A stretch of 12,183 nt of DNA. Source: a virus. Lineage: Duplodnaviria; Heunggongvirae; Uroviricota; Caudoviricetes. Where the stretch lies: the IMG/VR virus record IMGVR_UViG_2651869691_000007, positions 1 to 12,183 of that record; one strand, written 5' to 3'. Shown one piece after another: positions 1 through 12,183 of this stretch. Numbering within the stretch: position 1 is the stretch's first letter; each line of letters opens with the position of its first letter. A program made the translations under genes and the position numbers. Below the pieces are notes generated by a model, which saw only the letters and a program-made list of their open reading frames with translations, did no database searches and was not told where the DNA came from.

Positions 1-261
1 CTTTCTTTTTTCTCCTTTTATTTCAGAGTGATAGGTGGTGAATAATGGGTGAAGGGTGAACATTCGATTCTTCACCTACGGCATTCTGCCGGTGTGACTT
101 GTACAGGGGATTAATCCTCCGCACTGAAATCACACAGGGCGAAAAAAGTTTTTTTTGATTTGATTGTTCACACTGTTCACCTTTCGTTTTTCTCTTTTAA
201 TTTCAGTGTGATAACGGGTGAATACACGGTGAAGGATGAACAGTGGATTGTTCACCTGCGG
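1..261. repeat. crr: crr-like cis replication region: two ~81-bp imperfect direct repeats (1-81 and 181-261) each carrying type-I iteron variants
   Basis: Seen directly: repeat A (1-81) and repeat B (181-261) align at ~85% identity; both contain GGTGAATA, GGTGAAGG, G(G/A)TGAACA and an inverted TGTTCACC; two more inverted iterons at 165-181. P4 crr is described as two direct repeats with TGTTCACC iterons bound by alpha. Repeat A may start before the window. Confidence 0.6.
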
Positions 262-274
262 GGAATTCAGGGAT

Positions 275-300
275 AAAAAAAAGACCGGCAGATGCCGGTC
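275..300 (-). terminator. Rho-independent terminator downstream of alpha
   Basis: On the minus strand: GACCGGC-AUCU-GCCGGUC hairpin (283-300) followed immediately by U8 (275-282); lies 17 nt past the alpha stop codon (317-319). Confidence 0.65.
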
Positions 301-316
301 AGATGAGTCATGATGG

Positions 317-2650
317 TCAGGTTGTCGCAGGGTCGTCACATTTTGGCAGCCAGTCGCCGTAGCTTTCCTCTTTCAGTGTCAGGTTGGTCTGTATCCCCTG
401 TTTGGTATGGCGCTTCTCGTAATTCAGTCCGTATTCCTTCAGCATCACCGGTAGCCCCAGCCCGAACATTTTCAGACTGAGTACATTCCGGTAGCCGTTT
501 GCCTCCATGTAGGCCAGACAGGCGTGATAGAGGTATTTACGGTAATTACGCGGGATGATACTGGCGTTCCCCATATACATGCCGCTGGTCTGCGGCAGGG
601 TTTCCAGATAGCCGATAAAATCAAACGTCGGGTCGGCATCCCGTTTGATGTTCAGCGCCTCGTCTGAGTTCTGCTGGGACTGAAGCAGTGACCGGGCGAG
701 CATCGGGTCGCTGAACTTCTGCATCAGGTGACGCACGATGACCGCCAGCTCGCGGGTGATTTTGTCCTTAAGCTGCGGGTCGCGCTCCTGCGGGGCTATC
801 TGTTCCGGGAAGTGAATAATCACCCGCCGGCGTGACACGCCGCCGCTGCGGTCGGTGAAGCGCATCGGGTTATTGTTCACGGCCAGAATCACCGCCGGGA
901 TATGCGTGGAGTACGCATCCCGGTATTTCGGGTCAACGGACACCGCATCGCCGCCGGTGATGGCCTTGAGTCCGGCACCGTCGCCGCTCCATTTTTCCTG
1001 GTCCGGCAGGCGTATCAGTGAGAAGCCAGTTAACGCGGCACGTTCACGCGGGGATTCCAGCGTCTCAATGGTGGCCGACGTGGCGTTATCCTCCCCGGCC
1101 AGCAGGGTGGCGATTTCGGCCATGATACTTTTGCCGCTGCCGCCGGGACCGGTCACCTCCAGAAAGAGCTGCCAGTCGTAGCGGTTTGCCAGCACCATAA
1201 ACAGTGCGGCCAGAATCACGTCGCGTTTTTCCGCACGGCCACCGGCGGCACGGTCAAGCCAGCGCCAGAACGCGGGGGCGTGGGTCTCCAGCGTTTCACC
1301 GTCCACCGGCGGGGTGAAATCCACATCGCACAGGGTGCGCATCCAGTGTGACGGACTGTGCGGGTGGAACGTGCCGTTCTGCGTGTCGAGCACGCCGTTA
1401 CGAAAGCCAATCAGGCGGCGGGAGGGGGCTTCCTGCTGCGGAATAATCAGCTTCAGGGTGTCCACCACGGAGGCCACCTTCCCGGAGGAGAACGGCGCGC
1501 GCAGACGCTGAAACAGCCCGGCCACATCCCGGGCAAAGTCCTGTGGCGGCAGCACCTTCCAGACACCATTTTCATAGCGGGACAGAAGCTGGCCGTTGGC
1601 ATCGACCGCGAGCGCCTCGCCGTAATGCTCATAGATACGCATGGCCTTTTCGCTGGTACTCATGGCGGAAAACTCCGCTTCGCTCATGGTGTCGAACGGG
1701 CTTTCAGCCGGTGGCCGGATGGCATCATAAATGGCCTTACGGGTGGCCTCCCCGCCGTACTGCGTGAAGGCATCATTCCAGTCACCGAAGACCGGCGGCA
1801 GGGCAACAACACCCTCACACGCATCTGCGGCTGCGGCGGCTTTTGTCTGGCCGTCACCGCTGAGGTCACGGTCTGCGGCAAGGACAATCTGACAGGCCGG
1901 ATACTTCTGCCGGGCAAGGCTGGCCAGAGAAAGGAGGTTCACGGAAGAAAGCGCCACCATCACCGTTTCACCGGTCAGGTGATGCACGGTAAGTGCGGTC
2001 GCGTATCCCTCCGCTATCCACAGACGTTTTCCGGCCTGATTCTGTCCTTCAAAGATGTGACAGGTGCCCCTGACCTGCCCGCCTTTCAGAGTGCGCTTAC
2101 GGCCGTCAGCACTGATTAACTGAAGGTTAACCAGTTCGCCACTGTCGTCATACAGTGGCACCACAAGGTCACCGGCGCGCCAGCTCACGCCACCGGCTCT
2201 GTGTGTGCCGGTCAGCATCCGGCATTCCCGGTCGGGAAAGCCCTTGCGGGTCAGGTAGGCGTTACCGGTTCCGGGACGGGTTTTTGCCATCAGGGTTTGT
2301 GCCAGTGCGGCGGCGTTCTTCCGGGCAGCGTCTGTTTCAGCGCCGGCGGCGGCCGTCACTGCCGGGTCAGCCGGGGGCAGGCTGCCGGTCACGGCAGCCA
2401 CCTTTGCGGCCGCGTCGGACGGGGAGACACCAAACACCTTTTCAACCAGTTTCAGGCCGTCACCGGCACCACACTGATTGCAGTACCAGGTGCCGCGCCC
2501 CTCCCTGTCATCAAAACGGAAGCGGTCACTCCCGCCACAGACCGGACAGGGCTGATGACGGTTTTTCAGCACCTGAATCCCCAGCGCCGGGAGAATACGC
2601 GGCCAGTGGCCGAGCGCATGGCTGACGGTGGCGGTTACGTTCATTTTCAT
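317..2650 (-). CDS. alpha: P4 alpha-type DNA primase-helicase (777 aa)
   Basis: 777-aa ORF; N-terminal Cys4 zinc ribbon (CPVCGG...YCNQCG), TOPRIM-like segment (WIAEGYATAL...LAADRDLSGDG), Walker A GPGGSGKS. Length and N-terminus match recalled P4 alpha. The C-terminal domain would bind the TGTTCACC iterons seen at ori and crr. Confidence 0.9.
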   Translation of the reverse strand: MKMNVTATVSHALGHWPRILPALGIQVLKNRHQPCPVCGGSDRFRFDDREGRGTWYCNQCGAGDGLKLVEKVFGVSPSDAAAKVAAVTGSLPPADPAVTAAAGAETDAARKNAAALAQTLMAKTRPGTGNAYLTRKGFPDRECRMLTGTHRAGGVSWRAGDLVVPLYDDSGELVNLQLISADGRKRTLKGGQVRGTCHIFEGQNQAGKRLWIAEGYATALTVHHLTGETVMVALSSVNLLSLASLARQKYPACQIVLAADRDLSGDGQTKAAAAADACEGVVALPPVFGDWNDAFTQYGGEATRKAIYDAIRPPAESPFDTMSEAEFSAMSTSEKAMRIYEHYGEALAVDANGQLLSRYENGVWKVLPPQDFARDVAGLFQRLRAPFSSGKVASVVDTLKLIIPQQEAPSRRLIGFRNGVLDTQNGTFHPHSPSHWMRTLCDVDFTPPVDGETLETHAPAFWRWLDRAAGGRAEKRDVILAALFMVLANRYDWQLFLEVTGPGGSGKSIMAEIATLLAGEDNATSATIETLESPRERAALTGFSLIRLPDQEKWSGDGAGLKAITGGDAVSVDPKYRDAYSTHIPAVILAVNNNPMRFTDRSGGVSRRRVIIHFPEQIAPQERDPQLKDKITRELAVIVRHLMQKFSDPMLARSLLQSQQNSDEALNIKRDADPTFDFIGYLETLPQTSGMYMGNASIIPRNYRKYLYHACLAYMEANGYRNVLSLKMFGLGLPVMLKEYGLNYEKRHTKQGIQTNLTLKEESYGDWLPKCDDPATT

Positions 2651-2664
2651 GGTGTTGTTCTCCT

Positions 2665-2985
2665 TCAGTGCAGTACCGGCGCTTTTATGTGACGGGCACA
2701 GAGTTCATCCATCACAACCAGCCCGAGAAAGGACAGCGACGGCGCGGCCTTCAGGGGGCCGGATTCCATTAAATCTTCCAGCAGGGCACAGGCTATCTGA
2801 CGCCCTTTTTCCTCACCGTGCTGGCGCAGATAAAAGCCTTCCAGCTCAGCGGCGATGGCCGCCTCCAGTGACTCAAGGGTGAGATGCGGGTAGCGGTGCT
2901 GACGTTCGCACACGGTCAGCCAGGCACAGGCGACAGCGCGACGGTAAAGGGCAGCGCGTAAGACGGGCGGTAAGGGTGTTTTCAT
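2665..2985 (-). CDS. P4 orf106-like protein (106 aa), function unknown
   Basis: 106-aa ORF immediately upstream of alpha in the same operon; AGGGAG Shine-Dalgarno upstream of the ATG; position and length match P4 orf106. Confidence 0.7.
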
Positions 2986-3047
2986 TTGCTTTTCTCCCTG
3001 TGACAGATGACTGCATTCCGTGCCGGTTGCATTAACTGATAAGGCAT
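2982..3047 (-). CDS. Candidate 21-codon leader ORF ([21 protein letters not shown]) translationally coupled to orf106
   Basis: ATG at 3047 preceded by AGGAG (3056-3060) with 8-nt spacing; stop TGA overlaps the orf106 ATG as ATGA (2982-2985). Below the ORF-track length cutoff; no homology evidence. Confidence 0.25.
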
Positions 3048-3120
3048 ATCTGCGTCTCCTGAAGACGTGCGTATCCCTGCGCGAATACGCACATTTAATT
3101 TTTCGGGGGTCGTTTTTTAA

Positions 3121-3576
3121 TTACAGATAATTGCGGTAACTGTTATCCGGGGTGGTTTCCGGGTCAGGCTCCGTGCGGGGAATTTCCCGCCATTCCCGCG
3201 CCACCGGTGCCGCCCGGCTGACCGGAACAGGGGCCTGCGGGTAAATATCCAGATATTTCTCCCGCCATTTCTGTAATTCCGGGTCTCCGGCCATTTCTTT
3301 CAGTACCGCATGCCTGTTTACGGGGCTGCGTTTAAACAGGTCAGGACGGTCACAGGTAAATTCCCGCAGAAAACGCCCCAGCGGGATGTCTGTGGTGCGC
3401 CCGTCAGCGAGGATACGCACAAGGATACTGAATTTACGGCGGTACGGGTTCCAGACAATGTCCGGGCAGCGGTACGGCATTTCCCACGGAATACCGTCTT
3501 CCAGAATGCCGACCACGGCCACATCGGGAAAACCGGCAGAACGGTAAATCTCACCGGGCTGGGGAAAATCAAACAT
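3121..3576 (-). CDS. P4 orf151-like protein (151 aa), function unknown
   Basis: 151-aa ORF between epsilon and orf106; size and position match P4 orf151. Confidence 0.7.
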   Translation of the reverse strand: MFDFPQPGEIYRSAGFPDVAVVGILEDGIPWEMPYRCPDIVWNPYRRKFSILVRILADGRTTDIPLGRFLREFTCDRPDLFKRSPVNRHAVLKEMAGDPELQKWREKYLDIYPQAPVPVSRAAPVAREWREIPRTEPDPETTPDNSYRNYL

Positions 3577-3856
3577 GCGTCCTGTCTCCCCGGTCTTTCT
3601 GCTGGGCGAGAAAATCGCGGCACAGGCCTTTGGCTTTCAGCTCATTCAGCACAAAATCAATATCTTCATTCAGGTAGCTGAAAATATGCGGAATGTAGAG
3701 CTGATGCAGGCCGGAGAGTTCACGGTGAATCAAATCACCCCCAACAAACCGGGATACGGCGCTGGCGCGGTTGAGCTTATGGTAAGCCTCAATGCTGAGG
3801 TGTTCACGGGCGTCATGACGCGCTGAGACGGTCTGAGGGGCTTTTTTATTACGCAC
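3569..3856 (-). CDS. epsilon: P4 epsilon-like protein (95 aa; derepressor of helper prophage in P4)
   Basis: Tail of the 177-aa track ORF. Proposed start is GTG at 3856 with GGAGG 6 nt upstream, giving 95 aa ([15 protein letters not shown]...). The GTG overlaps the last codons of kil; the stop overlaps the orf151 start by 8 nt. Confidence 0.65.
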
Positions 3857-4046
3857 GGGACACCTCCACCACCGGCAGACGGGCAGCAAGGGAGAGCACA
3901 TAGTCACGGACAAGGGAACGGCGGGCGCTGCGTTCATCACCGGCGACGGTGCGAAGCATACAGATACGGGGATGACGGTCTGCGCGACGGACAGCCGCAA
4001 ACACAAAGACAAATTCAGGGTGTGAGGGGGTAAGGGTTGTAGCCAT
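3849..4046 (-). CDS. kil: kil-like 65-codon ORF, first translated gene after PLE
   Basis: ATG at 4046 preceded by strong SD AAGGAGG (4055-4060); 65 aa ([12 protein letters not shown]...VVEVSRA); forms the in-frame C-terminal part of the longer eta ORF, as described for P4 kil/eta. Confidence 0.6.
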
Positions 4047-4448
4047 GATGGCAGCCTCCTTGAAGTAACAGTTACAGCTACCACTAGAGTTCCTACGCTC
4101 ATGGGTGGTAGCCCGGACGGGGGTAGGAATACCGGCCTTCAAGGAAACCGGCCAGCCCGAAGGCTGCCCCGCCCGGACCACCATTATCTGACAGAGGCTA
4201 CGGTTTAAAAACCACAGCCAGAAAAACAGGTGTGCCGAAGCAACGACGTAAAAAAAGACGCATGGCGCGTCATATGTCGCCTTGAAGTAACTCGGGTTCC
4301 TACGCCCGGCTGCCGATTTTGCGGCAGCGGAAAAACTATATCCGCAAATGCCGGAAAAAGGCAAGCCAGAAAAAGGGAGTTTTTGCAGAGCGGGCATCAT
4401 CATGCGTCGTACCCCCGTTTGCGTCCGGCAATGCGTCCGGCCATCCAT
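3849..4448 (-). CDS. eta: eta-like long ORF (199 aa) starting upstream of PLE and containing kil in frame
   Basis: 199-aa ORF whose ATG (4448) lies upstream of the predicted PLE (4335-4364) and which spans the cI region. Matches the nested eta/kil arrangement reported for P4; translation is expected only from PLL transcripts. Confidence 0.4.
4104..4172 (-). ncRNA. cI: cI immunity RNA region (contains seqB)
   Basis: Minus-strand transcript 4172->4104 (69 nt) is closed by GGUGGU/ACCACC, has an internal CAGCC-UUCG-GGCUG tetraloop hairpin, and carries seqB (4123-4144) complementary to seqA (4280-4305) and seqC (4058-4098). Processed ends cannot be set from sequence. Confidence 0.45.
4250..4271 (-). 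terminator. Hairpin plus U7 in the PLE leader (candidate attenuator/terminator between seqA and cI)
   Basis: Minus-strand RNA: GACGC-GCCAU-GCGUC (4257-4271) followed by U7 (4250-4256). The stem is short (5 bp), so efficiency is uncertain. Confidence 0.35.
4335..4364 (-). promoter_or_regulatory. Candidate sigma70 promoter PLE (-35 TTGCCT, 18-bp spacer, -10 TATAGT)
   Basis: On the minus strand: TTGCCT (4359-4364), 18-bp spacer, TATAGT (4335-4340); sits inside eta, just downstream of the vis stop and upstream of seqA, as expected for P4 PLE. Confidence 0.4.
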
Positions 4449-4666
4449 GCGGTGACTTCAGAGTGCAGCCAGGCCACATTTTTACCGCCAAGACTCACCT
4501 GCGGCGGAAATTCCCCCTTACGGATGAGTTCGTAGATGGTCGAGCGTGACAGGCCGCACAGGTGCATCACTTCCGGAAGACGTAAAAAACGCTCCTGTGT
4601 GATGTCCGGCAGCGGCATCAGTGGCGTCACAGGGGCGGGAGAAGGGGAAGAAAAAACAGCTTGCAT
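4400..4666 (-). CDS. vis: Vis/AlpA-family small DNA-binding regulator (88 aa)
   Basis: 88-aa ORF with AlpA-type HTH ([46 protein letters not shown]); GAGG SD 7 nt upstream; first gene downstream of the PLL dyad; matches P4 vis (orf88) in size and position. Confidence 0.75.
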
Positions 4667-4768
4667 CGGGCTACCTCGTTAATGTCCATACAGCACCGGA
4701 TAAGTCCGTCCGGCTTCGGGTAGCGCTTTATTTTGTGAATATTTTCAGCAGACGCAACAGGGGGGATT

Positions 4769-4786
4769 TGTTCCGGCAGCCTTACA
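4769..4786 (-). promoter_or_regulatory. TGT-N12-ACA dyad: candidate Delta/Ogr activator site of late promoter PLL
   Basis: Exact TGT(4769-4771)-N12-ACA(4784-4786); sits roughly 100 bp upstream of the vis ATG (4666), consistent with a -55-centred activator site for a minus-strand promoter. The -10 element is weak, as is typical for activator-dependent P2/P4 late promoters. Confidence 0.45.
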
Positions 4787-4811
4787 ATGCTTGTGTATTT
4801 TTTGTTCATCT

Positions 4812-4841
4812 CCACTTAAAGTCATTTAAAGCCACTTAAAG
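4812..4841. repeat. Three tandem 10-bp repeats (CCACTTAAAG / TCATTTAAAG / CCACTTAAAG)
   Basis: Seen directly; the 10-bp period puts the sites on one helix face; located between the PLL dyad and the ori iterons. Confidence 0.5.
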
Positions 4842-4945
4842 CAATTCGTAATTTTTATAGTGAAATACAAATCGTTTTTTCTTATTCATTCCCGGCGAAT
4901 TAATAAAAACAAACAGTAATAAACAGCACAAAAAGCCCATCAACG

Positions 4946-5050
4946 GGTGAACAGTGGTGAACAGACGGTGAACAGCCATTACTGCAATTGTTCACCCTTT
5001 AACTTACTGTATTACCTATCTTTTTTCTTATGGTGAACAGAGGTGAACAG
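4946..5050. repeat. ori: ori-like iteron cluster: six type-I iterons (five direct GGTGAACAG, one inverted TGTTCACC)
   Basis: GGTGAACAG at 4946-4954, 4956-4964, 4967-4975, 5032-5040, 5042-5050; inverted TGTTCACC at 4989-4996. Flanked by AT-rich DNA and a 15-bp direct repeat AAAAACAAACAGTAA (4905-4919 and 5061-5075). P4 ori is reported to hold six type-I iterons. Confidence 0.6.
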
Positions 5051-5128
5051 TAAAATATAAAAAAACAAACAGTAAGCCGGTTTTTCCTGCGACCTTTTCC
5101 TGGCTTGCCGGTCTGAGGATGAGTCTCC

Positions 5129-5146
5129 TGTGTCAGGGCTGGCACA
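5129..5146 (+). promoter_or_regulatory. TGT-N12-ACA dyad: candidate Delta/Ogr activator site of late promoter Psid
   Basis: Exact TGT(5129-5131)-N12-ACA(5144-5146), centred ~82 bp upstream of the sid ATG (5219), consistent with a -55-centred site and a short leader. Confidence 0.5.
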
Positions 5147-5218
5147 TCTGCAATGCGTCGTGTTGTTGTCCGGTGTACGTCACAATTTTCTCAACCTGAA
5201 GTGACGAGGAGCCGGAAA

Positions 5219-5928
5219 ATGTCTGACAACACCATCCCTGAATATCTGCAACCCGCACTGGCACAACTGGAAAAGGCCAGAGCCGCCCACCTTGAGAACG
5301 CCCGCCTGATGGATGAGACCGTCACGGCCATTGAACGGGCAGAGCAGGAAAAAAATGCGCTGACGACTGGCGCACGGCCTTTCGTGCAGCCAGTGGTGTC
5401 CTGAGCGACGAGCTGAAACAGCGCCACATTGAGCGCGTGGCACGCCGGGAGCTGGTACAGGAATATGACAATCTGGCCGTGGTGCTGAATTTTGAACGCG
5501 AACGCCTGAAAGGGGCGTGTGACAGCACGGCCACCGCCTACCGGAAGGCACATCATCACCTTCTGAGTCTGTATGCAGAGCATGAGCTGGAACACGCCCT
5601 GAATGAAACCTGTGAGGCGCTTGTCCGGGCAATGCATCTGAGCATTCTGGTACAGAAAAATCCGCTCGCCAACACCACCGGGCATCAGGGCTACGTCGCA
5701 CCCGATAAAGTTGTCATGCAGCAGGTGAAATCATCACTGGAACAGAAAATAAAACAGATGCAAATCAGCCTCACCGGCGAGCCGGTTCTCCGGCTGACCG
5801 GACTGTCAGCGGCAACGCTCCCGCACATGGATTATGAGGTGGCAGGCACACCGGCACAGCGCAAGGTGTGGCAGGACAAAATAGACCAGCAGGGAGCAGA
5901 GCTTAAGGCCAGAGGACTGCTGTCATGA
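5219..5928 (+). pseudogene. sid: sid (external capsid size-determination scaffold) interrupted by a frameshift
   Basis: ATG at 5219 (GAGGAG upstream; MSDNTIPEYLQPALAQ...) runs in frame 2 to TGA at 5402-5404. The continuation (…AFRAASGVLSDELKQRHIERVARRELVQEY… to 5928) is open in frame 1 from 5335. The two frames overlap only in 5335-5401, which contains an A7 run (5349-5355). A sequencing error is possible. Confidence 0.6.
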
Positions 5929-6425
5929 TTTACTGCCCGTCGTGTGGACATGTTGCTCACACCCGTCGCGCACATTTCATGGACGATGGCACCAAGATAA
6001 TGATTGCACAGTGCCGGAATATTTATTGCTCTGCGACATTTGAAGCGAGTGAAAGCTTTTTCTCTGACTGTAAAGATTCAGGAATGGAATACATTTCAGG
6101 CAAACAGAGATACCGCGATTCACTGACTTCTGCCTCCGGCAGTATGAAACGCCCGAAAAGAATGCTTGTTACCGGATATTGTTGTCGGAGATGTAAAGGC
6201 CTTGCACTGTCAAGAACATCGCGGCGTCTGTCTCAGGAAGTCACTGAACGTTTTTATGTGTGCACGGATCCGGGCTGTGGTCTGGTGTTTAAAACGCTTC
6301 AGACCATCAACCGCTTCATTGTCCGCCCGGTCACGCCGGACGAACTGGCAGAAAGCCTGCATGAAAAACAGGAACTGCCGCCAGTACGGTTAAAAACACA
6401 ATCATATTCGCTGCGTCTGGAATGA
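5925..6425 (+). CDS. delta: Delta late-gene transcriptional activator (duplicated Ogr-type zinc finger, 166 aa)
   Basis: 166 aa with two Ogr-like Cys4 modules (MIYCPSCGHVAHTRRAHFMDDGTK...CRNIYCSATF and CCRRCKGLALSRTSRR...CTDPGCGLVF); ATGA overlap with the sid stop. Confidence 0.85.
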   Translation: MIYCPSCGHVAHTRRAHFMDDGTKIMIAQCRNIYCSATFEASESFFSDCKDSGMEYISGKQRYRDSLTSASGSMKRPKRMLVTGYCCRRCKGLALSRTSRRLSQEVTERFYVCTDPGCGLVFKTLQTINRFIVRPVTPDELAESLHEKQELPPVRLKTQSYSLRLE

Positions 6426-6498
6426 GGGCTGCCGGTTAACCCCGGCCGTCGCCGCACACCGTATTTTTATTCTTCAGCATGATGAGAAAGAGATAACG

Positions 6499-7071
6499 AT
6501 GGAAAGCACAGCCTTACAGCAGGCCTTTGACACGTGTCAGAATAACAAAGCAGCATGGCTGCAACGCAAAAATGAGCTGGCTGCGGCCGAACAGGAATAT
6601 CTGCGGCTTCTGTCAGGAGAAGGCAGAAACGTCAGTCGCCTTGACGAATTACGCAATATTATCGAAGTCAGAAAATGGCAGGTGAATCAGGCCGCCGGTC
6701 GTTATATTCGTTCGCATGAAGCCGTTCAGCACATCAGCATCCGCGACCGGCTGAATGATTTTATGCAGCAGCACGGCACAGCACTGGCGGCGGCACTGGC
6801 ACCGGAGCTGATGGGCTACAGTGAGCTGACGGCCATTGCCCGAAACTGTGCCATACAGCGTGCCACAGATGCCCTGCGTGAAGCCCTCCTGTCCTGGCTT
6901 GCGAAGGGTGAAAAAATTAATTATTCCGCACAGGATAGCGACATTTTAACGACCATCGGATTCAGGCCTGACGCGGCTTCGGTGGATGACAGCCGTGAAA
7001 AATTCACCCCTGCGCAGAACATGATTTTTTCGCGTAAAAGTGCGCAACTGGCATCACGTCAGTCTGTGTAA
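6499..7071 (+). CDS. psu: Psu polarity-suppression / capsid decoration protein (190 aa)
   Basis: 190-aa ORF following delta; N-terminus MESTALQQAFDTCQNNKAAW and length match recalled P4 Psu. Confidence 0.85.
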   Translation: MESTALQQAFDTCQNNKAAWLQRKNELAAAEQEYLRLLSGEGRNVSRLDELRNIIEVRKWQVNQAAGRYIRSHEAVQHISIRDRLNDFMQQHGTALAAALAPELMGYSELTAIARNCAIQRATDALREALLSWLAKGEKINYSAQDSDILTTIGFRPDAASVDDSREKFTPAQNMIFSRKSAQLASRQSV

Positions 7072-7235
7072 AATTCCCCGAAAATCCGCCTGTTTTTACT
7101 GAAAAAAGCCATGTATCGATAAGGTGCATGGCTTTGCATGCGTTTCCCTGCCTCATTTTCTGCAGACCGCGCCATTCCCGGCGCGGTCTGAGCGTGTCAG
7201 TGCAACTGCATTAAAACCGCCCCGCAAAGCGGGCG

Positions 7236-7254
7236 GGCGAGGCGGGGAGAGCAT
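7236..7254. other. cos: cos-like site (GGCGAGGCGGGGAGAGCAT)
   Basis: Differs at 2 of 19 positions from the P2/P4 19-nt cohesive end as recalled (GGCGAGGCGGGGAAAGCAC); preceded by GC-rich hairpin CCGCCCCGC-AAA-GCGGGCGG (7217-7236); lies right after psu, where P4 cos is expected. Confidence 0.55.
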
Positions 7255-7272
7255 TGCGCGCAGGTAAAAAAA

Positions 7273-7962
7273 TCATTTATTTTGTAATGCCGCATCAAAT
7301 CTGGTCTTGAGATCTTGGAATGGGATAACGAGTTTATCGATATAATCTTTATTATTATTTTGTAGAATTGCTTCAACAAAATCATTTAGAGGTGCATAGT
7401 TTTCTAATACTTTAGAATCGATAAAATCTTTATAGGACATACATTCAGCACCAATGCTAAGGCTTTCACCTATATACTTTTGTTCAAGAGATCTAATACA
7501 AGGAAAACCAATATCGTTCTCTCGTAGGGCTATAGAAATATTTTTGATTAATTCAGTTATTAACATTTCATCATTAGTTGGTGAAAATACAGATGAATCT
7601 CTATTTTTCCTGAATTGATGTACCCAGCAAAAATATTGGCATAGATAGAATCTTGTACTATCAATATAATATTGATCCGACGATAGGTCATTGTGATCTT
7701 TAATATAACATAGCCTTCCTAAAAAACCATTTGCAGCACTAAGTAATGTTAACCCCCAACGTCCGATTTCAAGATCTCTTGCTTTTTTAAAATTATAAGC
7801 ACGTTCATCCTCTTTAATTCTCTGTTCACTTTCATATTTCAACTTATTTTTAAATGATTCTAACTCTCTTTTATCAATATGTTGTAAAAAAGCCTTACAA
7901 ACAAATCCAATAATTGCAAATGAAATGCTTGATGACAAAATACCTTCCCAAAAGCTACTCAT
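7273..7962 (-). CDS. Small membrane-anchored partner protein (229 aa) of the RT-nitrilase gene
   Basis: N-terminal hydrophobic helix (ILSSSISFAIIGFVCKAFL); ATG overlaps the upstream gene stop as ATGA (7959-7962) with GAGG SD; ~30% GC; no motif I can recognise in the soluble part. Confidence 0.75.
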   Translation of the reverse strand: MSSFWEGILSSSISFAIIGFVCKAFLQHIDKRELESFKNKLKYESEQRIKEDERAYNFKKARDLEIGRWGLTLLSAANGFLGRLCYIKDHNDLSSDQYYIDSTRFYLCQYFCWVHQFRKNRDSSVFSPTNDEMLITELIKNISIALRENDIGFPCIRSLEQKYIGESLSIGAECMSYKDFIDSKVLENYAPLNDFVEAILQNNNKDYIDKLVIPFQDLKTRFDAALQNK

Positions 7963-10835
7963 TTCTCACCTCGCTCTAATAGAGCATTATAGTCAAACCC
8001 TGGAGGATTGTGTTTAATAGTATCGGAGTTAATTCTGAATGAACGATATTGAGCCTCTCTCAATGCATATATATTTAAAGTAGTAGTTAGGATGCAATGG
8101 TTTTCCCCACCTTTTACATATATCTTATTTGAAATAGTGCTACTGGTCGGTTGTAGAACACAAGAACCGCCATAATGCGAAGTATTTGATTGAGCCACAT
8201 AACAATGTAAATCCCGTGTCGCTGACTCAGTGATATGTTGATAATAATTTATATCTTGATTCCATACGCAAGCAAATAAAATATCCAACTGCGAACGAAA
8301 TAATGCTCTATGCTCGATATTAGCCAGTTCAAAACAGTTGTATGTAGAAAATGATACGTTTTTCCACTTAATCAAATGATACCGTTGTTTACTAGGTTTA
8401 GGAGAGGATATTTTTAACCTTAAAGAATTCAGCATCGTAATCTCACTAGGTGCGTAATGATTTTTCACTCGAAAAACTAACATACTGGATTTGTGTTTAA
8501 AGTTTGAAGTATAAGGCAGCATTTCAACCAAAATATTATATGCGCGTTCGTTAATAACCCAATGCTCTAATCCGAAAATCAAAGATATTTGTTTTCTCCT
8601 TGAATGTGCTGCCATAAAAGGTAACCACGACACAGGAATTGATAACTCAGGGAGTAGTAATATCTGCACATTTTCTTCAGTTGCCGAGTTGAGAATACGA
8701 TAAAGGTTTCTTTGTCGTTCATAACTTAAATTTGGAGACTGATCTTTTCTGCAAGCACTTTCAATATTACGACGTTCAACTCTCATATTTGCCAACGCAA
8801 CTTTTATTGTGTCATTACCACTTCTATCATCAATTCCTACCTTTATTTCAAGAGCTTTATTATCTTTTATCTTAGTAACAGAGCAATTTTTTAAGTGATG
8901 CTTATTTTCATGCGTAAACTTATGTAGTTTTCTTGTATGAAGAGCATCAATCAAATCGAAAAGCTGCTTTTCATCAGCATGAATATATCTAGGGGTTTTA
9001 TTTAATTTATCATTATCAAGTGGAATACCATGCATCTTACTGTATAAATTCTCCTCAGTAAGATCTCCTTTATATTTAGTATAGTTAGCTAAAGGCCAAG
9101 ACACTAGATTATGACGAATCAAATTACTGCTTCTAAATCTTTCAATTAGAACAGACATTCCATCGGACTGTTTAATTAAAGATTTCAAACCTTCCAAAGC
9201 TCTATTTTGTGGCTCTTTATCACCTAAAATGACATTTAAATCTAACAAAGCCAAATTCAAACAAAGAGAAATATCAATGTATTTCTGCATTCCATTTTTA
9301 AGTTTTGGAGATATAACACTATCACCTTCCTTCCACTTCATTTTATTAATTGATTCTTTAATTTGTTTGTAAAAGGCGATTGAAAATCCATATTTTCTTG
9401 TAATTAATGTATACGATAGAACTTTCTCCCATAACCGACTGAACCTTAGAGAATTTTCACCTTTAAAAAACAGCGTTATTTGCTTTAAGGTATTCTCATT
9501 CGATGGAAGATTGCAAAGCCTATGAGCTAAGATATGTGATGATATATATTTTGATAATTCAGTTTCATTCTCTGCCAAACCTACAATACTTCTAAATTTA
9601 TTTGCCGAACCATCAAGTAATATATCATAAGCAAATTTATCGAGATCGCTAGATATATGTTCTTCCGGTAAAAAACGAAATGCACTGCTTCTGTTCTCAA
9701 TTTCTTGTTTGAAGACTTGTAAACCAGCCAAACTATGATCTTTATTGAAATAATGAAAAATCAATTTATCCTTTTGAATTGGTAATTCATGATAACTCTC
9801 GGTCAACGTAAAGCCTTTCTCATCATTCGCTGCCTGTTTGATGAATCCATTAAGGGTTCGCTCTATGAATTTTATTACTTCTTCACCTTTATCTTCTTTT
9901 TTAATGTCCGGAGATGAAAAAACTAAAAGAATATCATCCACATAGCGACCGTAGTACGATGGATTAATTTTTGATTTAATATCTTTATCAAAACCCATTA
10001 AATACCAATTAGATAATATGGCAGAAGAAGTAAATCCAATTGGAATGCCTTTTGATGAAGGAGTTGAATGTGTCACACCAATATATGGAGATATTTTCTC
10101 TCTGTATTTTTGATGCATCAACCTCAATTTACTATTCAACAACATAGAAAGAGCTTTAATTTCTTCTAATTGTTCTTCGTCAATAATTCTATCAATGGCA
10201 TCAAAATCTATATCTATATTATAATAAAAACCCTTAAGATCCAGAGAAAGAATTGCAACATCATTTCGCTCTTTTTCTATAACTTCTATCGCTTTATCGA
10301 TACCACCATCTCGCCATTTATTATAATTATCAATGTATCTTTCAAAGATATTTTTTGAGGAGTTTTTTGGCGCATCGAAACTATTCTTAGAATATTTTTT
10401 TATTACTTTTGATATTCTATTTCCATAAACCGAATCAGAAAACTTGTCATCTAGCATTGAACCAACAAAGATAGACCAGAGTGTTTCTATTAAATATATT
10501 TCAATAGGAGCAACGATCAAATAATTTACAGCACCTACTTTGTATTCATCTGATGTCTTATTATTACTTAAAAAAAGAGCTCCGCTCGTTTGCTCAATAT
10601 CCAAATGGCTATCAATTTTTTTTGGTAATAATTCAACATCAATTTTATTTAGCCACTCATTAAAGTTAATGTCATTATTATTTTCAAAAAAATCAACCAC
10701 TTTTTCTATTTTTTCGTCATAGAGAGAATCTTCAAATTGAGCGATTTCTTCCTTTAGGAAAAAATTTAAGTTTTCGTAGTAAGCATATGACTTAAGACAA
10801 TTATATGCACTAACAACTATATCTTTTGTAATCAT
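7959..10835 (-). CDS. Reverse transcriptase fused to C-terminal nitrilase (carbon-nitrogen hydrolase) domain, 958 aa; candidate defence-associated RT
   Basis: RT motifs: LSLDLKGFYYNIDIDF (aa 196-211), PIGFTSSAILSNWYL (aa 265-279), YGRYVDDILLVF with YVDD encoded at 9933-9944. CN-hydrolase signature: IKVALANMRV, LLLPE (Glu730, 8646-8648), FRVKNHY (Lys), YNCFE (Cys834 at 8334-8336, Glu836). N-terminal ~185 aa and the aa 310-670 region are unassigned. Confidence 0.85.
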   Translation of the reverse strand: MITKDIVVSAYNCLKSYAYYENLNFFLKEEIAQFEDSLYDEKIEKVVDFFENNNDINFNEWLNKIDVELLPKKIDSHLDIEQTSGALFLSNNKTSDEYKVGAVNYLIVAPIEIYLIETLWSIFVGSMLDDKFSDSVYGNRISKVIKKYSKNSFDAPKNSSKNIFERYIDNYNKWRDGGIDKAIEVIEKERNDVAILSLDLKGFYYNIDIDFDAIDRIIDEEQLEEIKALSMLLNSKLRLMHQKYREKISPYIGVTHSTPSSKGIPIGFTSSAILSNWYLMGFDKDIKSKINPSYYGRYVDDILLVFSSPDIKKEDKGEEVIKFIERTLNGFIKQAANDEKGFTLTESYHELPIQKDKLIFHYFNKDHSLAGLQVFKQEIENRSSAFRFLPEEHISSDLDKFAYDILLDGSANKFRSIVGLAENETELSKYISSHILAHRLCNLPSNENTLKQITLFFKGENSLRFSRLWEKVLSYTLITRKYGFSIAFYKQIKESINKMKWKEGDSVISPKLKNGMQKYIDISLCLNLALLDLNVILGDKEPQNRALEGLKSLIKQSDGMSVLIERFRSSNLIRHNLVSWPLANYTKYKGDLTEENLYSKMHGIPLDNDKLNKTPRYIHADEKQLFDLIDALHTRKLHKFTHENKHHLKNCSVTKIKDNKALEIKVGIDDRSGNDTIKVALANMRVERRNIESACRKDQSPNLSYERQRNLYRILNSATEENVQILLLPELSIPVSWLPFMAAHSRRKQISLIFGLEHWVINERAYNILVEMLPYTSNFKHKSSMLVFRVKNHYAPSEITMLNSLRLKISSPKPSKQRYHLIKWKNVSFSTYNCFELANIEHRALFRSQLDILFACVWNQDINYYQHITESATRDLHCYVAQSNTSHYGGSCVLQPTSSTISNKIYVKGGENHCILTTTLNIYALREAQYRSFRINSDTIKHNPPGFDYNALLERGEK

Positions 10836-10926
10836 AACGCATCATTCCGTGTATAAGTCTGTTATAGATGAAAGTAAAACTGAAATTGATTAATACCTAA
10901 CAAAAACATACAGAAAAAATCAATTA

Positions 10927-12183
10927 TTAATATTTTTTTGCAAAATCAAATGGTGTTACGAAAGTCTCACGATTTGCTGATAGGAAATCCGCCCACCATT
11001 GCATCATCAATCGACGTTCGTCCAAATGCTCTGAAGTATGGATATAAGCTGCACGAACATTATTGCGCTCCGAGTGGCTTAACTGACGTTCTATCGCATC
11101 ATCACTCCAAAGCCCCGACTCCCCCAAAGCACCACGCGCCATTGTTCTAAAACCATGCCCACATACTTCCGTTTGTGTGTCGTAGCCCATAGTCCTGAGC
11201 GCATTATTAACTGTGTTTTCGCTCATAACTTTATTGGGATCATGATCACCGGGAAACAGTCTAGGATTATCTCCACTAAGCTTCTTCAACTCATCCAGCA
11301 AAGCTAGAGCCTGAGTGCTCAATGGAACAATATGTTCCTCTTTCATCTTCATCCCACGATAGGAGTAACGCACACCTTCGATTTCTTCACGCCGCGCCGG
11401 TATCCGCCAGCAGGCGTTATCAAAATCAAACTCATCCCATCGGGCAAATCGCATCTCACTAGAGCGAACGAAGGTAAGTAGAGATAACTCGACTGCAATA
11501 CGCGTCATTTTGCGGCCACGATATGCCGCAAGGCGTGCCAGAAACTCAGGGAAACGGCTGGAAGGTAGAGCTGGATAGTGTCGTGCTTTAGTTGTCGATA
11601 ACGCACCAGCCATATCGCTAGCCGGGTTCGAGTCGATATAATCGTTCTGTACGGCATACCGCATAATGGCCGTGACGCGCTGTTGCAGGCGCTGAGCGAC
11701 GTCGTGTTTACCACTGACATCAACTTTTTTAATCGGGGCTAATAGGTGGCTAGTTTTGAGCTGGCGAATGTCGGACGAACCGATATGAGGGAAGATATAA
11801 AGCTCAAGATAGCGAAGAACACGCGATCGATGGTCTTCACTCCAGCGCTTGTTACTGGCATGCCATTCGCGAGCAATGGTTTCGAAGGTATATGCCCCCG
11901 AATTCTCGGCCTGAGCTTCTTTCTGTTCGGCTTTTGGGTCAATGCCCTGCACTAACAGCTTTTTAGCTTCGTCGCGCTTTGCTCTTGCCTGAGCAAGCGT
12001 CACTGTAGGCCAAACACCAAAAGCGAGGCGATCCTCTTTTTTGTCAGAGGGGCGTCGGTATTTCATGCGCCAGTATTTAGAACCCTTGGCCGAAACCTCG
12101 AGATACAAACCGCCGCCATCGGCCATTTTGTATGTTTTGTCTTTTGGCTTTGCGGTCTCGACCTGTCTGGCGTTGAGCTTCAT
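10927..12183 (-). CDS. int: P4-family tyrosine integrase (418 aa), start codon at window edge
   Basis: N-terminus MKLNARQVETAKPKDKTYKMADGGGLYLEVSAKGSKYWRMKYR typical of P4/CP4-57-type integrases; catalytic-domain boxes TFVRSSEMR, HGFRTMARG, VRAAYIHTSE. ATG occupies 12181-12183, so upstream extension cannot be excluded. Confidence 0.9.
   Translation of the reverse strand: MKLNARQVETAKPKDKTYKMADGGGLYLEVSAKGSKYWRMKYRRPSDKKEDRLAFGVWPTVTLAQARAKRDEAKKLLVQGIDPKAEQKEAQAENSGAYTFETIAREWHASNKRWSEDHRSRVLRYLELYIFPHIGSSDIRQLKTSHLLAPIKKVDVSGKHDVAQRLQQRVTAIMRYAVQNDYIDSNPASDMAGALSTTKARHYPALPSSRFPEFLARLAAYRGRKMTRIAVELSLLTFVRSSEMRFARWDEFDFDNACWRIPARREEIEGVRYSYRGMKMKEEHIVPLSTQALALLDELKKLSGDNPRLFPGDHDPNKVMSENTVNNALRTMGYDTQTEVCGHGFRTMARGALGESGLWSDDAIERQLSHSERNNVRAAYIHTSEHLDERRLMMQWWADFLSANRETFVTPFDFAKKY

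What the first reader, a model, noticed from the sequence alone, without database searches (positions are those of the whole stretch)
7255..10926. Low-GC cargo island replaces the gop-beta-cII segment between cos and int
Composition drops abruptly from about 55% GC in the backbone to about 30% GC between the cos-like site (ends 7254) and the int stop (10927). Phage P4 carries gop, beta and cII in this position; here they are absent and replaced by the two-gene RT operon on the minus strand. This indicates modular exchange at a satellite hotspot and foreign origin of the cargo.
Basis: partly seen in the sequence, partly recalled or inferred. Interest (0 to 1): 0.7.

Follow-up and report, generated by a model that had tools for sequence, protein, structure and literature searches.

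The report
Known anti-phage cassette in P4 satellite
The low-GC island is a real but already published anti-phage defence cassette (a reverse transcriptase fused to a nitrilase, plus a small membrane protein) in the well-known variable slot next to the packaging site of P4-like phage satellites in E. coli.

Summary
GC falls from 55.5% (1-7254) to 31.2% (7255-10926). P4 homology stops 8 nt past the cos cohesive end (window 7262), and gop/beta/cII are absent at DNA and protein level. The slot holds a two-gene minus-strand operon: a 958-aa UG5-large reverse transcriptase-nitrilase and a 229-aa single-pass membrane protein.

This is already known. The psu/cos-int interval is the P4 defence hotspot of Rousset et al. 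2022. The first 100 nt of their cloned, phage-protective 'RT-nitrilase + 1TM' insert (pFR76, E. coli E101) match window 10958-10859 exactly.

Three refinements:
- The right-hand exchange junction is not the int stop codon. It is a crossover inside int (window ~11512-11524), so the integrase catalytic half travels with the cargo.
- Two different int 5' segments are joined to the same block at that point.
- Low GC does not point to a recent low-GC donor. P4's own cassette, other cargoes and distant homologues of this RT are all AT-rich whatever the host.

[quoted passage not shown] Interest is low and novelty is 'already known'.

The parts
6499..7071 (+). psu, the last conserved backbone gene before the hotspot
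   Evidence: Pfam Psu, E=1.3e-88; 97% nt identity to P4
7072..7261 (.). Conserved cos-proximal region. It contains a GC-rich hairpin at 7217-7236 (terminator-like on the minus strand) and ends in the conserved GCGCGC.
   Evidence: Conserved in P4, L002, L009, L010 and Serratia L005 up to ...AGCA(T/C)(T/C)GCGCGC, then complete divergence by cargo. Hairpin.
7236..7254 (+). 19-nt cos cohesive-end sequence GGCGAGGCGGGGAGAGCAT (P4 nt 1-19)
   Evidence: Window 7262 = P4 nt 27; sequence read
7262..7272 (.). Left junction and an ~11-nt spacer between the conserved cos flank and the TM gene stop codon
7273..7962 (-). 229-aa partner protein ('RTasTM', Mestre cluster 1858). It has an N-terminal transmembrane helix (residues ~5-27, window 7882-7950) and a cytoplasmic all-helical domain.
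   Evidence: PADLOC RTasTM, 541 bits, full length. 29 homologue clusters, all Enterobacterales. AF2 pLDDT 87, helical. Only generic helical-bundle fold hits. Hydrophobic segment translated.
7959..10835 (-). 958-aa UG5-large reverse transcriptase fused to a C-terminal nitrilase (C-N hydrolase). It overlaps the TM gene by ATGA.
   Evidence: PADLOC RT_UG5-nitrilase, 2254 bits, 1-958/958. Pfam RVT_1. Annotated WP_000628823.1 in L002. Identical to the pFR76 system.
9786..10418 (-). RT fingers/palm region (residues ~140-350), with invariant D199 and YVDD (residues 298-301 = window 9933-9944)
   Evidence: Profile alignment to DRT1 9yfd residues 151-372, E=1e-24. Invariant columns. YVDD translated.
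7986..8816 (-). Nitrilase-superfamily domain (residues ~674-950). Invariant residues are E730, K791, E757 and C834 (window 8334-8336), plus a C-terminal K941/P944-P945-G946 motif.
   Evidence: Invariant columns in 34 homologues down to 44% identity. Foldseek hits to nitrilase/amidase structures, TMt 0.6-0.66. C834 aligns with DRT1 catalytic C1116, and PPGF with DRT1 C-terminal PAGF. Translated.
10836..10958 (-). Native promoter and 5' leader of the RT operon. It overlaps the last 32 nt of int and has a conserved TAnTAAT-like motif at 10889-10895. No structured RNA.
   Evidence: The pFR76 insert starts at 10958 and was active from its native promoter (PMC9122126). Motif conserved in L003, L005 and L006. 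Fold z-score -0.02. The consensus promoter scan found nothing here.
10927..11511 (-). 3' part of int (catalytic domain, residues ~225-418), co-inherited with the cargo
   Evidence: 74-77% nt identity to other E. coli int alleles but 90% to the int next to the closest RT homologue, L003. 56 of 68 informative sites follow L003. At >=99% identity it is found only in the 33 RT-bearing genomes.
11512..11524 (-). Crossover interval inside int (gene nt 660-672). It lies at the end of a ~45-nt block conserved in all alleles (encoding RFPEFLARLAAYRGR), at the boundary of the core-binding and catalytic domains.
   Evidence: Breakpoint analysis. The same boundary appears in L011/L013 with a different 5' allele. 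Alignment. Pfam catalytic domain starts at residue 225. Translated.
11525..12183 (-). 5' part of int (arm-binding and core-binding domains), of ordinary E. coli P4 type
   Evidence: 82 of 88 informative sites follow the E. coli alleles. Matches 719 of 5426 E. coli genomes, mostly at 90-95%.

Best explanation
What it is: the interval is the cargo of the known defence hotspot of a P4-like satellite prophage integrated at tRNA-Leu. The cargo is the UG5-large 'RT-nitrilase + 1TM' system (a class 3 UG/Abi defence-associated reverse transcriptase). It matches the start of the cassette that Rousset et al. cloned from E. coli E101 and showed to protect against phage.

How it got there (inferred from sequence): a block running from 8 nt beyond the cos cohesive end, through both cargo genes, into the catalytic half of int was exchanged. 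One end is fixed at the cos flank. The other is a homologous crossover in a conserved ~45-nt stretch of int.

How it works (inferred from relatives, not shown for this protein):
1. The RT domain makes short semirandom DNA without a template, primed on its own side chain.
2. This covalent DNA drives oligomerisation that both assembles and restrains the nitrilase domain.
3. A phage replication function releases the restraint.
4. The nitrilase, and probably the membrane partner, then stop growth of the infected cell (abortive infection).

The operon is translationally coupled and uses its own promoter, which overlaps the end of int.
For: Identity of the element:
- Backbone is 96-97% identical to P4, with core genes confirmed by Pfam.
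- It is integrated next to tRNA-Leu in complete genomes.

Identity of the cargo:
- Full-length PADLOC hits to RT_UG5-nitrilase and RTasTM.
- 100/100 nt match to the start of the pFR76 insert.
- WP_000628823 and WP_000094232 are listed in the paper's hotspot table.
- The paper reports defence from the native promoter, measured at room temperature.
- Mestre et al. name it UG5-large from E. coli E101.
- PMC13436386 places it in the UG5 radiation and says it resists a podovirus-like phage.

Hotspot behaviour:
- Unrelated cargo in L008-L010 and P4, with a shared break after GCGCGC.
- 31 of 1083 cos-flank-positive genomes carry this cargo.

Exchange block:
- int is a mosaic, with 82:2 informative sites upstream and 6:56 downstream of the breakpoint.
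- The boundary is shared by L011/L013, which carry a different int 5' allele.
- The two halves of int have very different population distributions.

Mechanism:
- RT and nitrilase catalytic residues are invariant.
- Homology to DRT1 covers the RT, the catalytic Cys and the C-terminal lid motif.
- The nitrilase fold is confirmed.
- DRT1, DRT5S and DRT5L all make covalent DNA without a template (PMC13275509).
- There is no room for an ncRNA: 91 nt upstream and ~11 nt downstream. There are no Rfam hits in the island and no stable leader.
- The ATGA overlap is conserved in four loci.
Against: - No biochemistry exists for this exact protein. I could not confirm that the 'DRT5L' used in PMC13275509 is a close relative.
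- DRT1's priming serine (S402) is reported as not conserved in other class 3 enzymes, and its region did not align here, so the priming residue is unknown.
- The TM protein's role is open. DRT1 and DRT11 work without one. Mestre et al. state that it is required in this system, but I did not find that experiment in the main text of Rousset et al..
- The nitrilase substrate is unknown for the whole class.
- The shared int breakpoint could come from one ancestral event plus later replacement of the int 5' part, rather than two crossovers at the same spot.
Confidence: 0.85

Rival explanations
1. The exchanged unit is the cargo alone, bounded by cos and the int stop codon. The mosaic int would reflect unrelated recombination among integrase genes.
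For: The composition changes most sharply near 10926-10985. The int C-terminal tail motif (V/I)(T/S)P(F/Y)(D/E)FA is shared by int alleles with other cargo, so the tail is not cargo-specific at the protein level.
Against: At >=99% identity the int 3' part occurs only in the 33 genomes that also carry the RT. It is 99.6% identical between two element types whose int 5' parts differ by 8.6%. Its nearest relative (90%) is the int adjacent to the nearest RT homologue. Its divergence from other E. coli alleles (74-77%) equals inter-genus levels, unlike alleles linked to other cargo (83-89%).
Confidence: 0.12
2. The island is a recent import from a low-GC donor organism, and its 31% GC is the donor's signature.
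For: There is a 24-point GC drop and a GC3 of 0.20-0.24.
Against: The same cassette is 31-33% GC in Serratia, Dickeya and Aeromonas, whose flanks are 59-64% GC, although the proteins are only 65-80% identical. Homologues at ~45% identity in Marinobacter and Halomonas-like contigs are 39% and 33% GC. All close relatives are Gammaproteobacteria. P4's own cassette and other cargoes are also 31-36% GC. AT-richness is therefore a lasting property of these genes.
Confidence: 0.04
3. The RT is part of a selfish or templated retroelement (group II intron, retron, DGR) or a DRT2/DRT9-type system that copies a dedicated ncRNA.
For: It has an RVT_1 domain and weak structural similarity to group II intron, DGR, retron and DRT2/DRT9 RTs.
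Against: No Rfam family matches in the island at gathering threshold. The non-coding flanks are only 91 nt and ~11 nt, poorly conserved and not stably folded. There is no maturase or endonuclease domain. The best models by far are UG5-large (2254 bits, against 96 bits or less for other RT classes). Class 3 enzymes synthesise DNA without a template.
Confidence: 0.03

Closest known systems
P4-like satellite psu/cos-int defence hotspot (Rousset et al. 2022, PMC9122126; dynamics in PMC13586616)
   Same: Same backbone, same position directly next to cos, and the same sharp junction. The cargo differs between otherwise homologous elements. This very cassette is one of the systems the paper validated (pFR76, E. 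coli E101).
   Different: Nothing essential. Here the right-hand junction is mapped inside int and the int catalytic half is linked to the cargo. I did not find this stated in either paper; the 2026 study excluded the integrase from its core analyses.
UG5-large RT-nitrilase, class 3 UG/Abi (Mestre et al. 2022, PMC9226505), including DRT11 of Sinorhizobium meliloti (PMC13436386)
   Same: RT with a fused C-terminal C-N hydrolase and a full-length match to the UG5-large model. The downstream TM protein belongs to the associated cluster.
   Different: DRT11 has no TM partner and works without one. The TM family here is confined to a small enterobacterial clade (29 clusters), and distant homologues lack it.
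DRT1 / UG1 (Gao et al. 2020; structure 9yfd, PMC13275509)
   Same: RT plus nitrilase in one chain, sometimes with a TM partner (drt1b). Shared features are the YVDD motif, the catalytic Cys and a C-terminal PxGF motif. It is the probable model for the mechanism.
   Different: A different RT clade: 958 aa against 1229 aa, Drt1a model 96 bits against 2254 bits for UG5. Only the RT core and the end of the nitrilase align. The S402 priming region does not align.
P4 gop-beta-cII cassette
   Same: It occupies the same slot, is also low in GC (36%), and is also an anti-phage system according to Rousset et al..
   Different: No sequence relationship at DNA or protein level. It has three genes in mixed orientation.

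Membership tests
P4-like satellite defence hotspot (psu/cos-int) | P4-like core genes (alpha primase, epsilon, delta, psu, int) and a cos site | tested here: met
   Pfam hits. 96-97% nt identity to P4 over 1-7262. cos at 7236-7254. Note that sid is frameshifted in this copy.
P4-like satellite defence hotspot (psu/cos-int) | Variable gene content directly next to cos, between psu and int, in otherwise homologous elements | tested here: met
   P4, L008, L009 and L010 carry unrelated genes. Homology breaks after the GCGCGC that follows the cohesive end. 31 of 1083 cos-positive genomes have this cargo.
P4-like satellite defence hotspot (psu/cos-int) | The cargo confers anti-phage defence | not testable with these tools
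   Published for the cassette whose first 100 nt are identical to window 10958-10859.
UG5-large (class 3 UG/Abi RT, RT-nitrilase + TM) | RT domain of the UG5 clade with an intact catalytic YxDD | tested here: met
   PADLOC RT_UG5-nitrilase, 2254 bits, full length; the next RT class scores 96 bits or less. YVDD is invariant.
UG5-large (class 3 UG/Abi RT, RT-nitrilase + TM) | Fused C-terminal C-N hydrolase with a Glu-Lys-Cys triad | tested here: met
   E730, K791 and C834 are invariant. Nitrilase/amidase fold hits. PADLOC RTasNitrilase covers residues 674-948.
UG5-large (class 3 UG/Abi RT, RT-nitrilase + TM) | Downstream transmembrane partner (cluster 85/1858); frequent but not universal | tested here: met
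   PADLOC RTasTM, 541 bits. N-terminal hydrophobic helix. ATGA overlap with the RT gene.
UG5-large (class 3 UG/Abi RT, RT-nitrilase + TM) | [quoted passage not shown] | not testable with these tools
   Shown for DRT1, DRT5S and DRT5L. Here there is only supporting evidence: no ncRNA space or structure.
DRT1 / UG1 | UG1-clade RT of ~1200-1300 aa with the conserved priming serine (S402) | tested here: not met
   958 aa. The Drt1a model scores 96 bits against 2254 for UG5. The profile aligns only RT residues 140-349 and the last ~115 residues. The S402 region is not aligned.
Retron / group II intron / DRT2-DRT9 type (templated RT) | Adjacent structured ncRNA template (msr-msd, intron RNA or DRT ncRNA) | tested here: not met
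   No Rfam hit within 7263-10985. 91-nt leader with z=-0.02. Leader poorly conserved.
gop-beta-cII | Homologues of Gop, Beta or CII | tested here: not met
   The best tblastn E-value is 3.1, and the hits lie outside or at random positions. No blastn homology.

The most novel reading that the evidence does not exclude
The unit swapped at the P4 hotspot may be a block, not the defence cassette alone. The block would be anchored on one side 7-8 nt beyond the cos cohesive end, and on the other side at a conserved ~45-nt stretch of int at the boundary of the core-binding and catalytic domains. Each cassette would then carry its own integrase catalytic half. The crossover point would be reused: here two different int 5' alleles are joined to the same block within 6 nt of each other. 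If general, this would be the physical evidence for the 'cos end plus a second homologous crossover' model that Rousset et al. only proposed. It would also explain why integrase phylogeny disagrees with the satellite core.
Probability: 0.45. Interest if true: 0.4.

Novelty: already known. Interest (0 to 1): 0.2.

Why it matters
As a discovery it matters little. The hotspot, this cassette's anti-phage activity and the RT family are all published.

It is a clean worked example of how phage satellites carry interchangeable immune cassettes. The mapped junctions (a fixed point just past cos and a crossover inside int) are a concrete lead on how hundreds of different cassettes get swapped into one slot, a question the two hotspot papers leave open.

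The locus also pairs a class 3 RT-nitrilase with a membrane partner that is reported to be needed. That makes it a good system for asking what the partner adds to the DRT1-type mechanism.

Tried and rejected
1. Cargo-specific Int tail: rejected. I suspected that the last ~19 codons of int (10927-10985, 30% GC, no nucleotide homology to other alleles) were cargo-derived. The tail motif (V/I)(T/S)P(F/Y)(D/E)FA turns out to be shared by int alleles with other cargo, and P4's own tail is the aberrant one.

3. Structured leader or ncRNA: none. There are no Rfam hits in the island, the leader fold has z = -0.02 and conservation is poor.

4. Consensus promoter scan: no site in 10836-10960, and fewer sites than in shuffled sequence overall. 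Only a conserved TAnTAAT-like motif was seen by eye.

5. DRT1 priming serine: the region did not align. The invariant S383-S384 next to a low-confidence loop is only a guess.

6. Foldseek of the RT model against PDB did not return DRT1 (9yfd). That library may predate its release. The sequence-profile search did find it.

7. Organism of L003: its flank is only 76-84% identical to E. coli, so the organism remains unidentified.

8. One script failed because of a file-naming assumption, and one gave an empty alignment because of an id collision. Both were rerun correctly.
Full report
OBSERVATION. The compositional island is real. GC is 55.5% over 1-7254, 31.2% over 7255-10926 and 48.9% over int. 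Every 200-nt window inside 7263-10926 lies between 25.5% and 38% GC. Outside the island the mean is 54.9%, and only the replication-origin region around 4721-5100 is as AT-rich. Third-codon-position GC is 0.20 and 0.24 in the two island genes, against 0.47-0.72 in backbone genes.

BACKBONE. The window is a P4-like satellite prophage. Pfam identifies the alpha primase-helicase, the Ash/cI-region and epsilon ('Derepression') proteins, Delta, Psu and a P4-type tyrosine integrase. Megablast finds P4 itself at 95.5% identity over 69% of the window. blastn gives 97.4% identity for 1-4185 and 96.8% for 4244-7262. In complete genomes the same element sits next to tRNA-Leu, followed by ahr, yjgR and lptGF.

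WHAT IS MISSING AND WHAT IS PRESENT. In P4, gop, beta and cII lie between cos and int. Here P4 homology stops at window 7262 (P4 nt 27) and resumes at 10986 (P4 nt 2717, inside int). tblastn with Gop, Beta and CII finds nothing better than E = 3. The interval holds two minus-strand genes that overlap by ATGA:
- A 958-aa protein matches the PADLOC model RT_UG5-nitrilase end to end (2254 bits).
- A 229-aa protein matches RTasTM end to end (541 bits).

ALREADY PUBLISHED. Rousset et al. 2022 (PMC9122126) described the psu-int interval, directly next to cos, as a hotspot. They counted 5,251 loci and more than 300 gene arrangements in E. coli. They cloned 19 systems and reported that gop-beta-cII and an 'RT-nitrilase + 1TM' system, with an RT of unknown group 5, protect against phage. 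The latter was measured at room temperature. Their Table S2A lists that construct as pFR76 from E. coli E101. The first 100 nt of its insert match window 10958-10859 (minus strand) without a mismatch. The protein accessions annotated on a 99.6%-identical element appear in their locus table. Mestre et al. 2022 name the system UG5-large and say the TM protein (cluster 1858) is needed. A 2026 paper places it in the UG5 radiation and says it resists a podovirus-like phage. The finding is therefore correct but not new.

DISTRIBUTION. Of 5,426 complete E. coli genomes, 1,083 match the cos flank and 31 carry the whole island at 99.8-99.9% identity. Three copies are interrupted by IS1 or IS4 elements, and one has a frameshifted RT. 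Two contexts exist. One is an intact satellite at tRNA-Leu. The other is a remnant in which IS elements removed everything upstream of psu but left psu-cos-TM-RT-int.

JUNCTIONS.
- Left: all cos-bearing elements compared are conserved through ...AGCA(T/C)(T/C)GCGCGC (window 7250-7261). These are P4, three E. coli elements and a Serratia element. They diverge completely afterwards, according to cargo. The TM gene's stop codon follows about 11 nt later.
- Right: the gene boundary is the int stop codon at 10927, but int is a mosaic. In 99-nt steps from its 5' end, identity to P4, L008 and L010 is 90-98% for the first ~600 nt and then 66-76%. Identity to the int beside the closest RT homologue (L003) goes the other way, from 74-84% to 88-94%. 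Among 156 informative sites, 82 follow the E. coli alleles and 2 follow L003 upstream of gene nt 660-672. Downstream, 56 follow L003 and 6 follow the E. coli alleles. That places the crossover at window 11512-11524.
- Independent confirmation: the remnant elements L011 and L013 have the same cargo and the same int 3' part (two differences after nt 666). They differ from the window at 57 positions in nt 1-666, where they are 97% identical to P4.
- Population level: the int 5' part matches 719 genomes, mostly at 90-95%. The int 3' part reaches 99% or more only in the 33 RT-bearing genomes and is otherwise 78% or less.
- Location of the crossover: it lies at the end of a ~45-nt stretch nearly identical in all alleles, encoding RFPEFLARLAAYRGR. 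This is Int residue ~224, where the Pfam catalytic-domain match begins.

The exchanged block is thus roughly 7262-11512: the cargo plus the integrase catalytic half. This fits the model Rousset et al. proposed but did not document, namely a cos-end event plus a second homologous crossover. The 2026 study of hotspot dynamics left the integrase out of its core analyses and does not mention breakpoints.

ORIGIN.
- Close relatives of the RT (60-88% identity) occur in Serratia, Cronobacter, Enterobacter, Klebsiella, Dickeya, Pectobacterium, Pantoea and Aeromonas. A large set at 42-47% identity is found in marine and other Gammaproteobacteria.
- In Serratia the cassette again lies between a P4-type int and cos, with a delta-like gene beyond. 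In Dickeya it follows a P4-type int at the same chromosomal site but is followed by a different element. In Aeromonas it stands alone.
- In all of these the cassette is 31-33% GC, although the flanks are 59-64% GC. Two homologues at ~45% identity in Marinobacter and a Halomonas-like contig are 39% and 33% GC in 50-58% flanks. They lack both the TM gene and an integrase.
- P4's own cassette is 36% GC, and three other cargoes are 31-35%.

Low GC is therefore a persistent trait of hotspot cargo and of this RT family. It is not the signature of a recent low-GC donor. The int 3' part is as diverged from other E. coli alleles (74-77%) as int genes of different genera are from each other. This indicates that the block came from a satellite lineage outside E. 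coli. The closest known relative is an unidentified enterobacterial assembly.

PROTEINS AND MECHANISM.
- Shown here: across 34 homologues down to 44% identity, the invariant residues are the RT residues D199 and Y298-V299-D300-D301, the nitrilase residues E730, K791, E757 and C834, and a C-terminal K941...P944-P945-G946 motif.
- Shown here: a family profile finds the DRT1 structure 9yfd at E = 1e-24. It aligns the RT core, the segment with DRT1's catalytic C1116 (C834 here) and the extreme C-terminus (PPGF with PAGF).
- Shown here: the AF2 model (pLDDT 79) matches nitrilase-superfamily amidases for its C-terminal third and AbiA, Abi-P2, DRT9 and DGR RTs for its N-terminal half.
- Shown here: the partner protein has an N-terminal hydrophobic helix and a confident all-helical domain with no informative structural neighbour. 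There is no space or signal for a template RNA.
- From the literature: purified DRT1, DRT5S and DRT5L synthesise DNA without a template and covalently attached to the protein. In DRT1 this DNA drives assembly of dormant filaments whose swapped C-termini close the nitrilase site. RT and nitrilase mutants lose defence, defence is abortive, and a T4 ssDNA helicase is needed for activation. The authors suggest that a TM partner, where present, might be gated by the DNA adducts, as in Hailong.
- Inferred: this protein works the same way, with the TM protein as a co-effector or amplifier. The priming residue, the trigger and the substrate are unknown.

VERDICT. The object is an already published, experimentally validated defence cassette in an already published hotspot. 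The new details are the crossover inside int and the family-wide AT-richness. Both are modest.

Noticed in passing
window 5219-5928 (+), deletion after 5357: sid (the capsid-size determination gene) has a 25-nt deletion relative to P4 and to the 99.6%-identical element in E. coli CP062910. This frameshifts the gene into two ORFs (5153-5404 and 5437-5928). This copy of the satellite probably cannot direct small-capsid assembly.
   Followed up: partly
window 4101-4341 (-): Rfam finds C4 antisense RNA (4101-4188), isrK (4251-4328) and the c4 a1/b1 target (4289-4341), which together form the P4 CI-RNA immunity region. P4 homology is interrupted at 4186-4243, which suggests a different immunity specificity from P4.
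   Followed up: no
P4 (L001) int 3' end, nt 2607-2717, compared with window 10927-10985: P4's own Int ends in an aberrant, 17-residue-longer tail (ISLMIIQNTKKYLNKNSYWLIFKMSVK). All other P4-type integrases examined end in (V/I)(T/S)P(F/Y)(D/E)FA... The junction of P4's gop-beta-cII cassette therefore seems to lie inside the last codons of int.
   Followed up: partly
L011, L012, L013 (E. coli E8, FORC_031, 3359): These are remnant elements. IS1 and IS4 fragments replace everything upstream of psu, while psu-cos-TM-RT-int is retained next to a second island and a second integrase at tRNA-Leu. In FORC_031 the RT gene is frameshifted. The defence cassette thus outlives the satellite.
   Followed up: partly
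L003 11552-12230: In the closest non-E. coli relative, int-RT-TM is followed by a partial cos and then directly by crr-like repeats (75-85% identical to window 29-281). The whole psu-to-alpha backbone has been deleted.
   Followed up: no
window 9683-9689 (RT residues S383-S384) and residues 385-421: An invariant RSSAFRFLP motif lies just before the only long low-confidence loop of the AF2 model. It sits about 80 residues after YVDD, similar to the spacing of DRT1's priming serine S402. It is a candidate priming site, but untested.
   Followed up: no
window 4650-5250: A second low-GC dip (35-45%) coincides with the P4 ori and late-promoter region (P4 9086-9809). It is part of the conserved backbone, not an island.
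   Followed up: partly
L008 (E. coli VG12A2) 2781-6936: A P4-like element of a different subfamily (two psu-like genes, a short delta-like gene, no cos match within 5 mismatches) carries three unannotated genes of 422, 178 and 646 aa at 31.5% GC in the equivalent slot. Their function was not examined.
   Followed up: no
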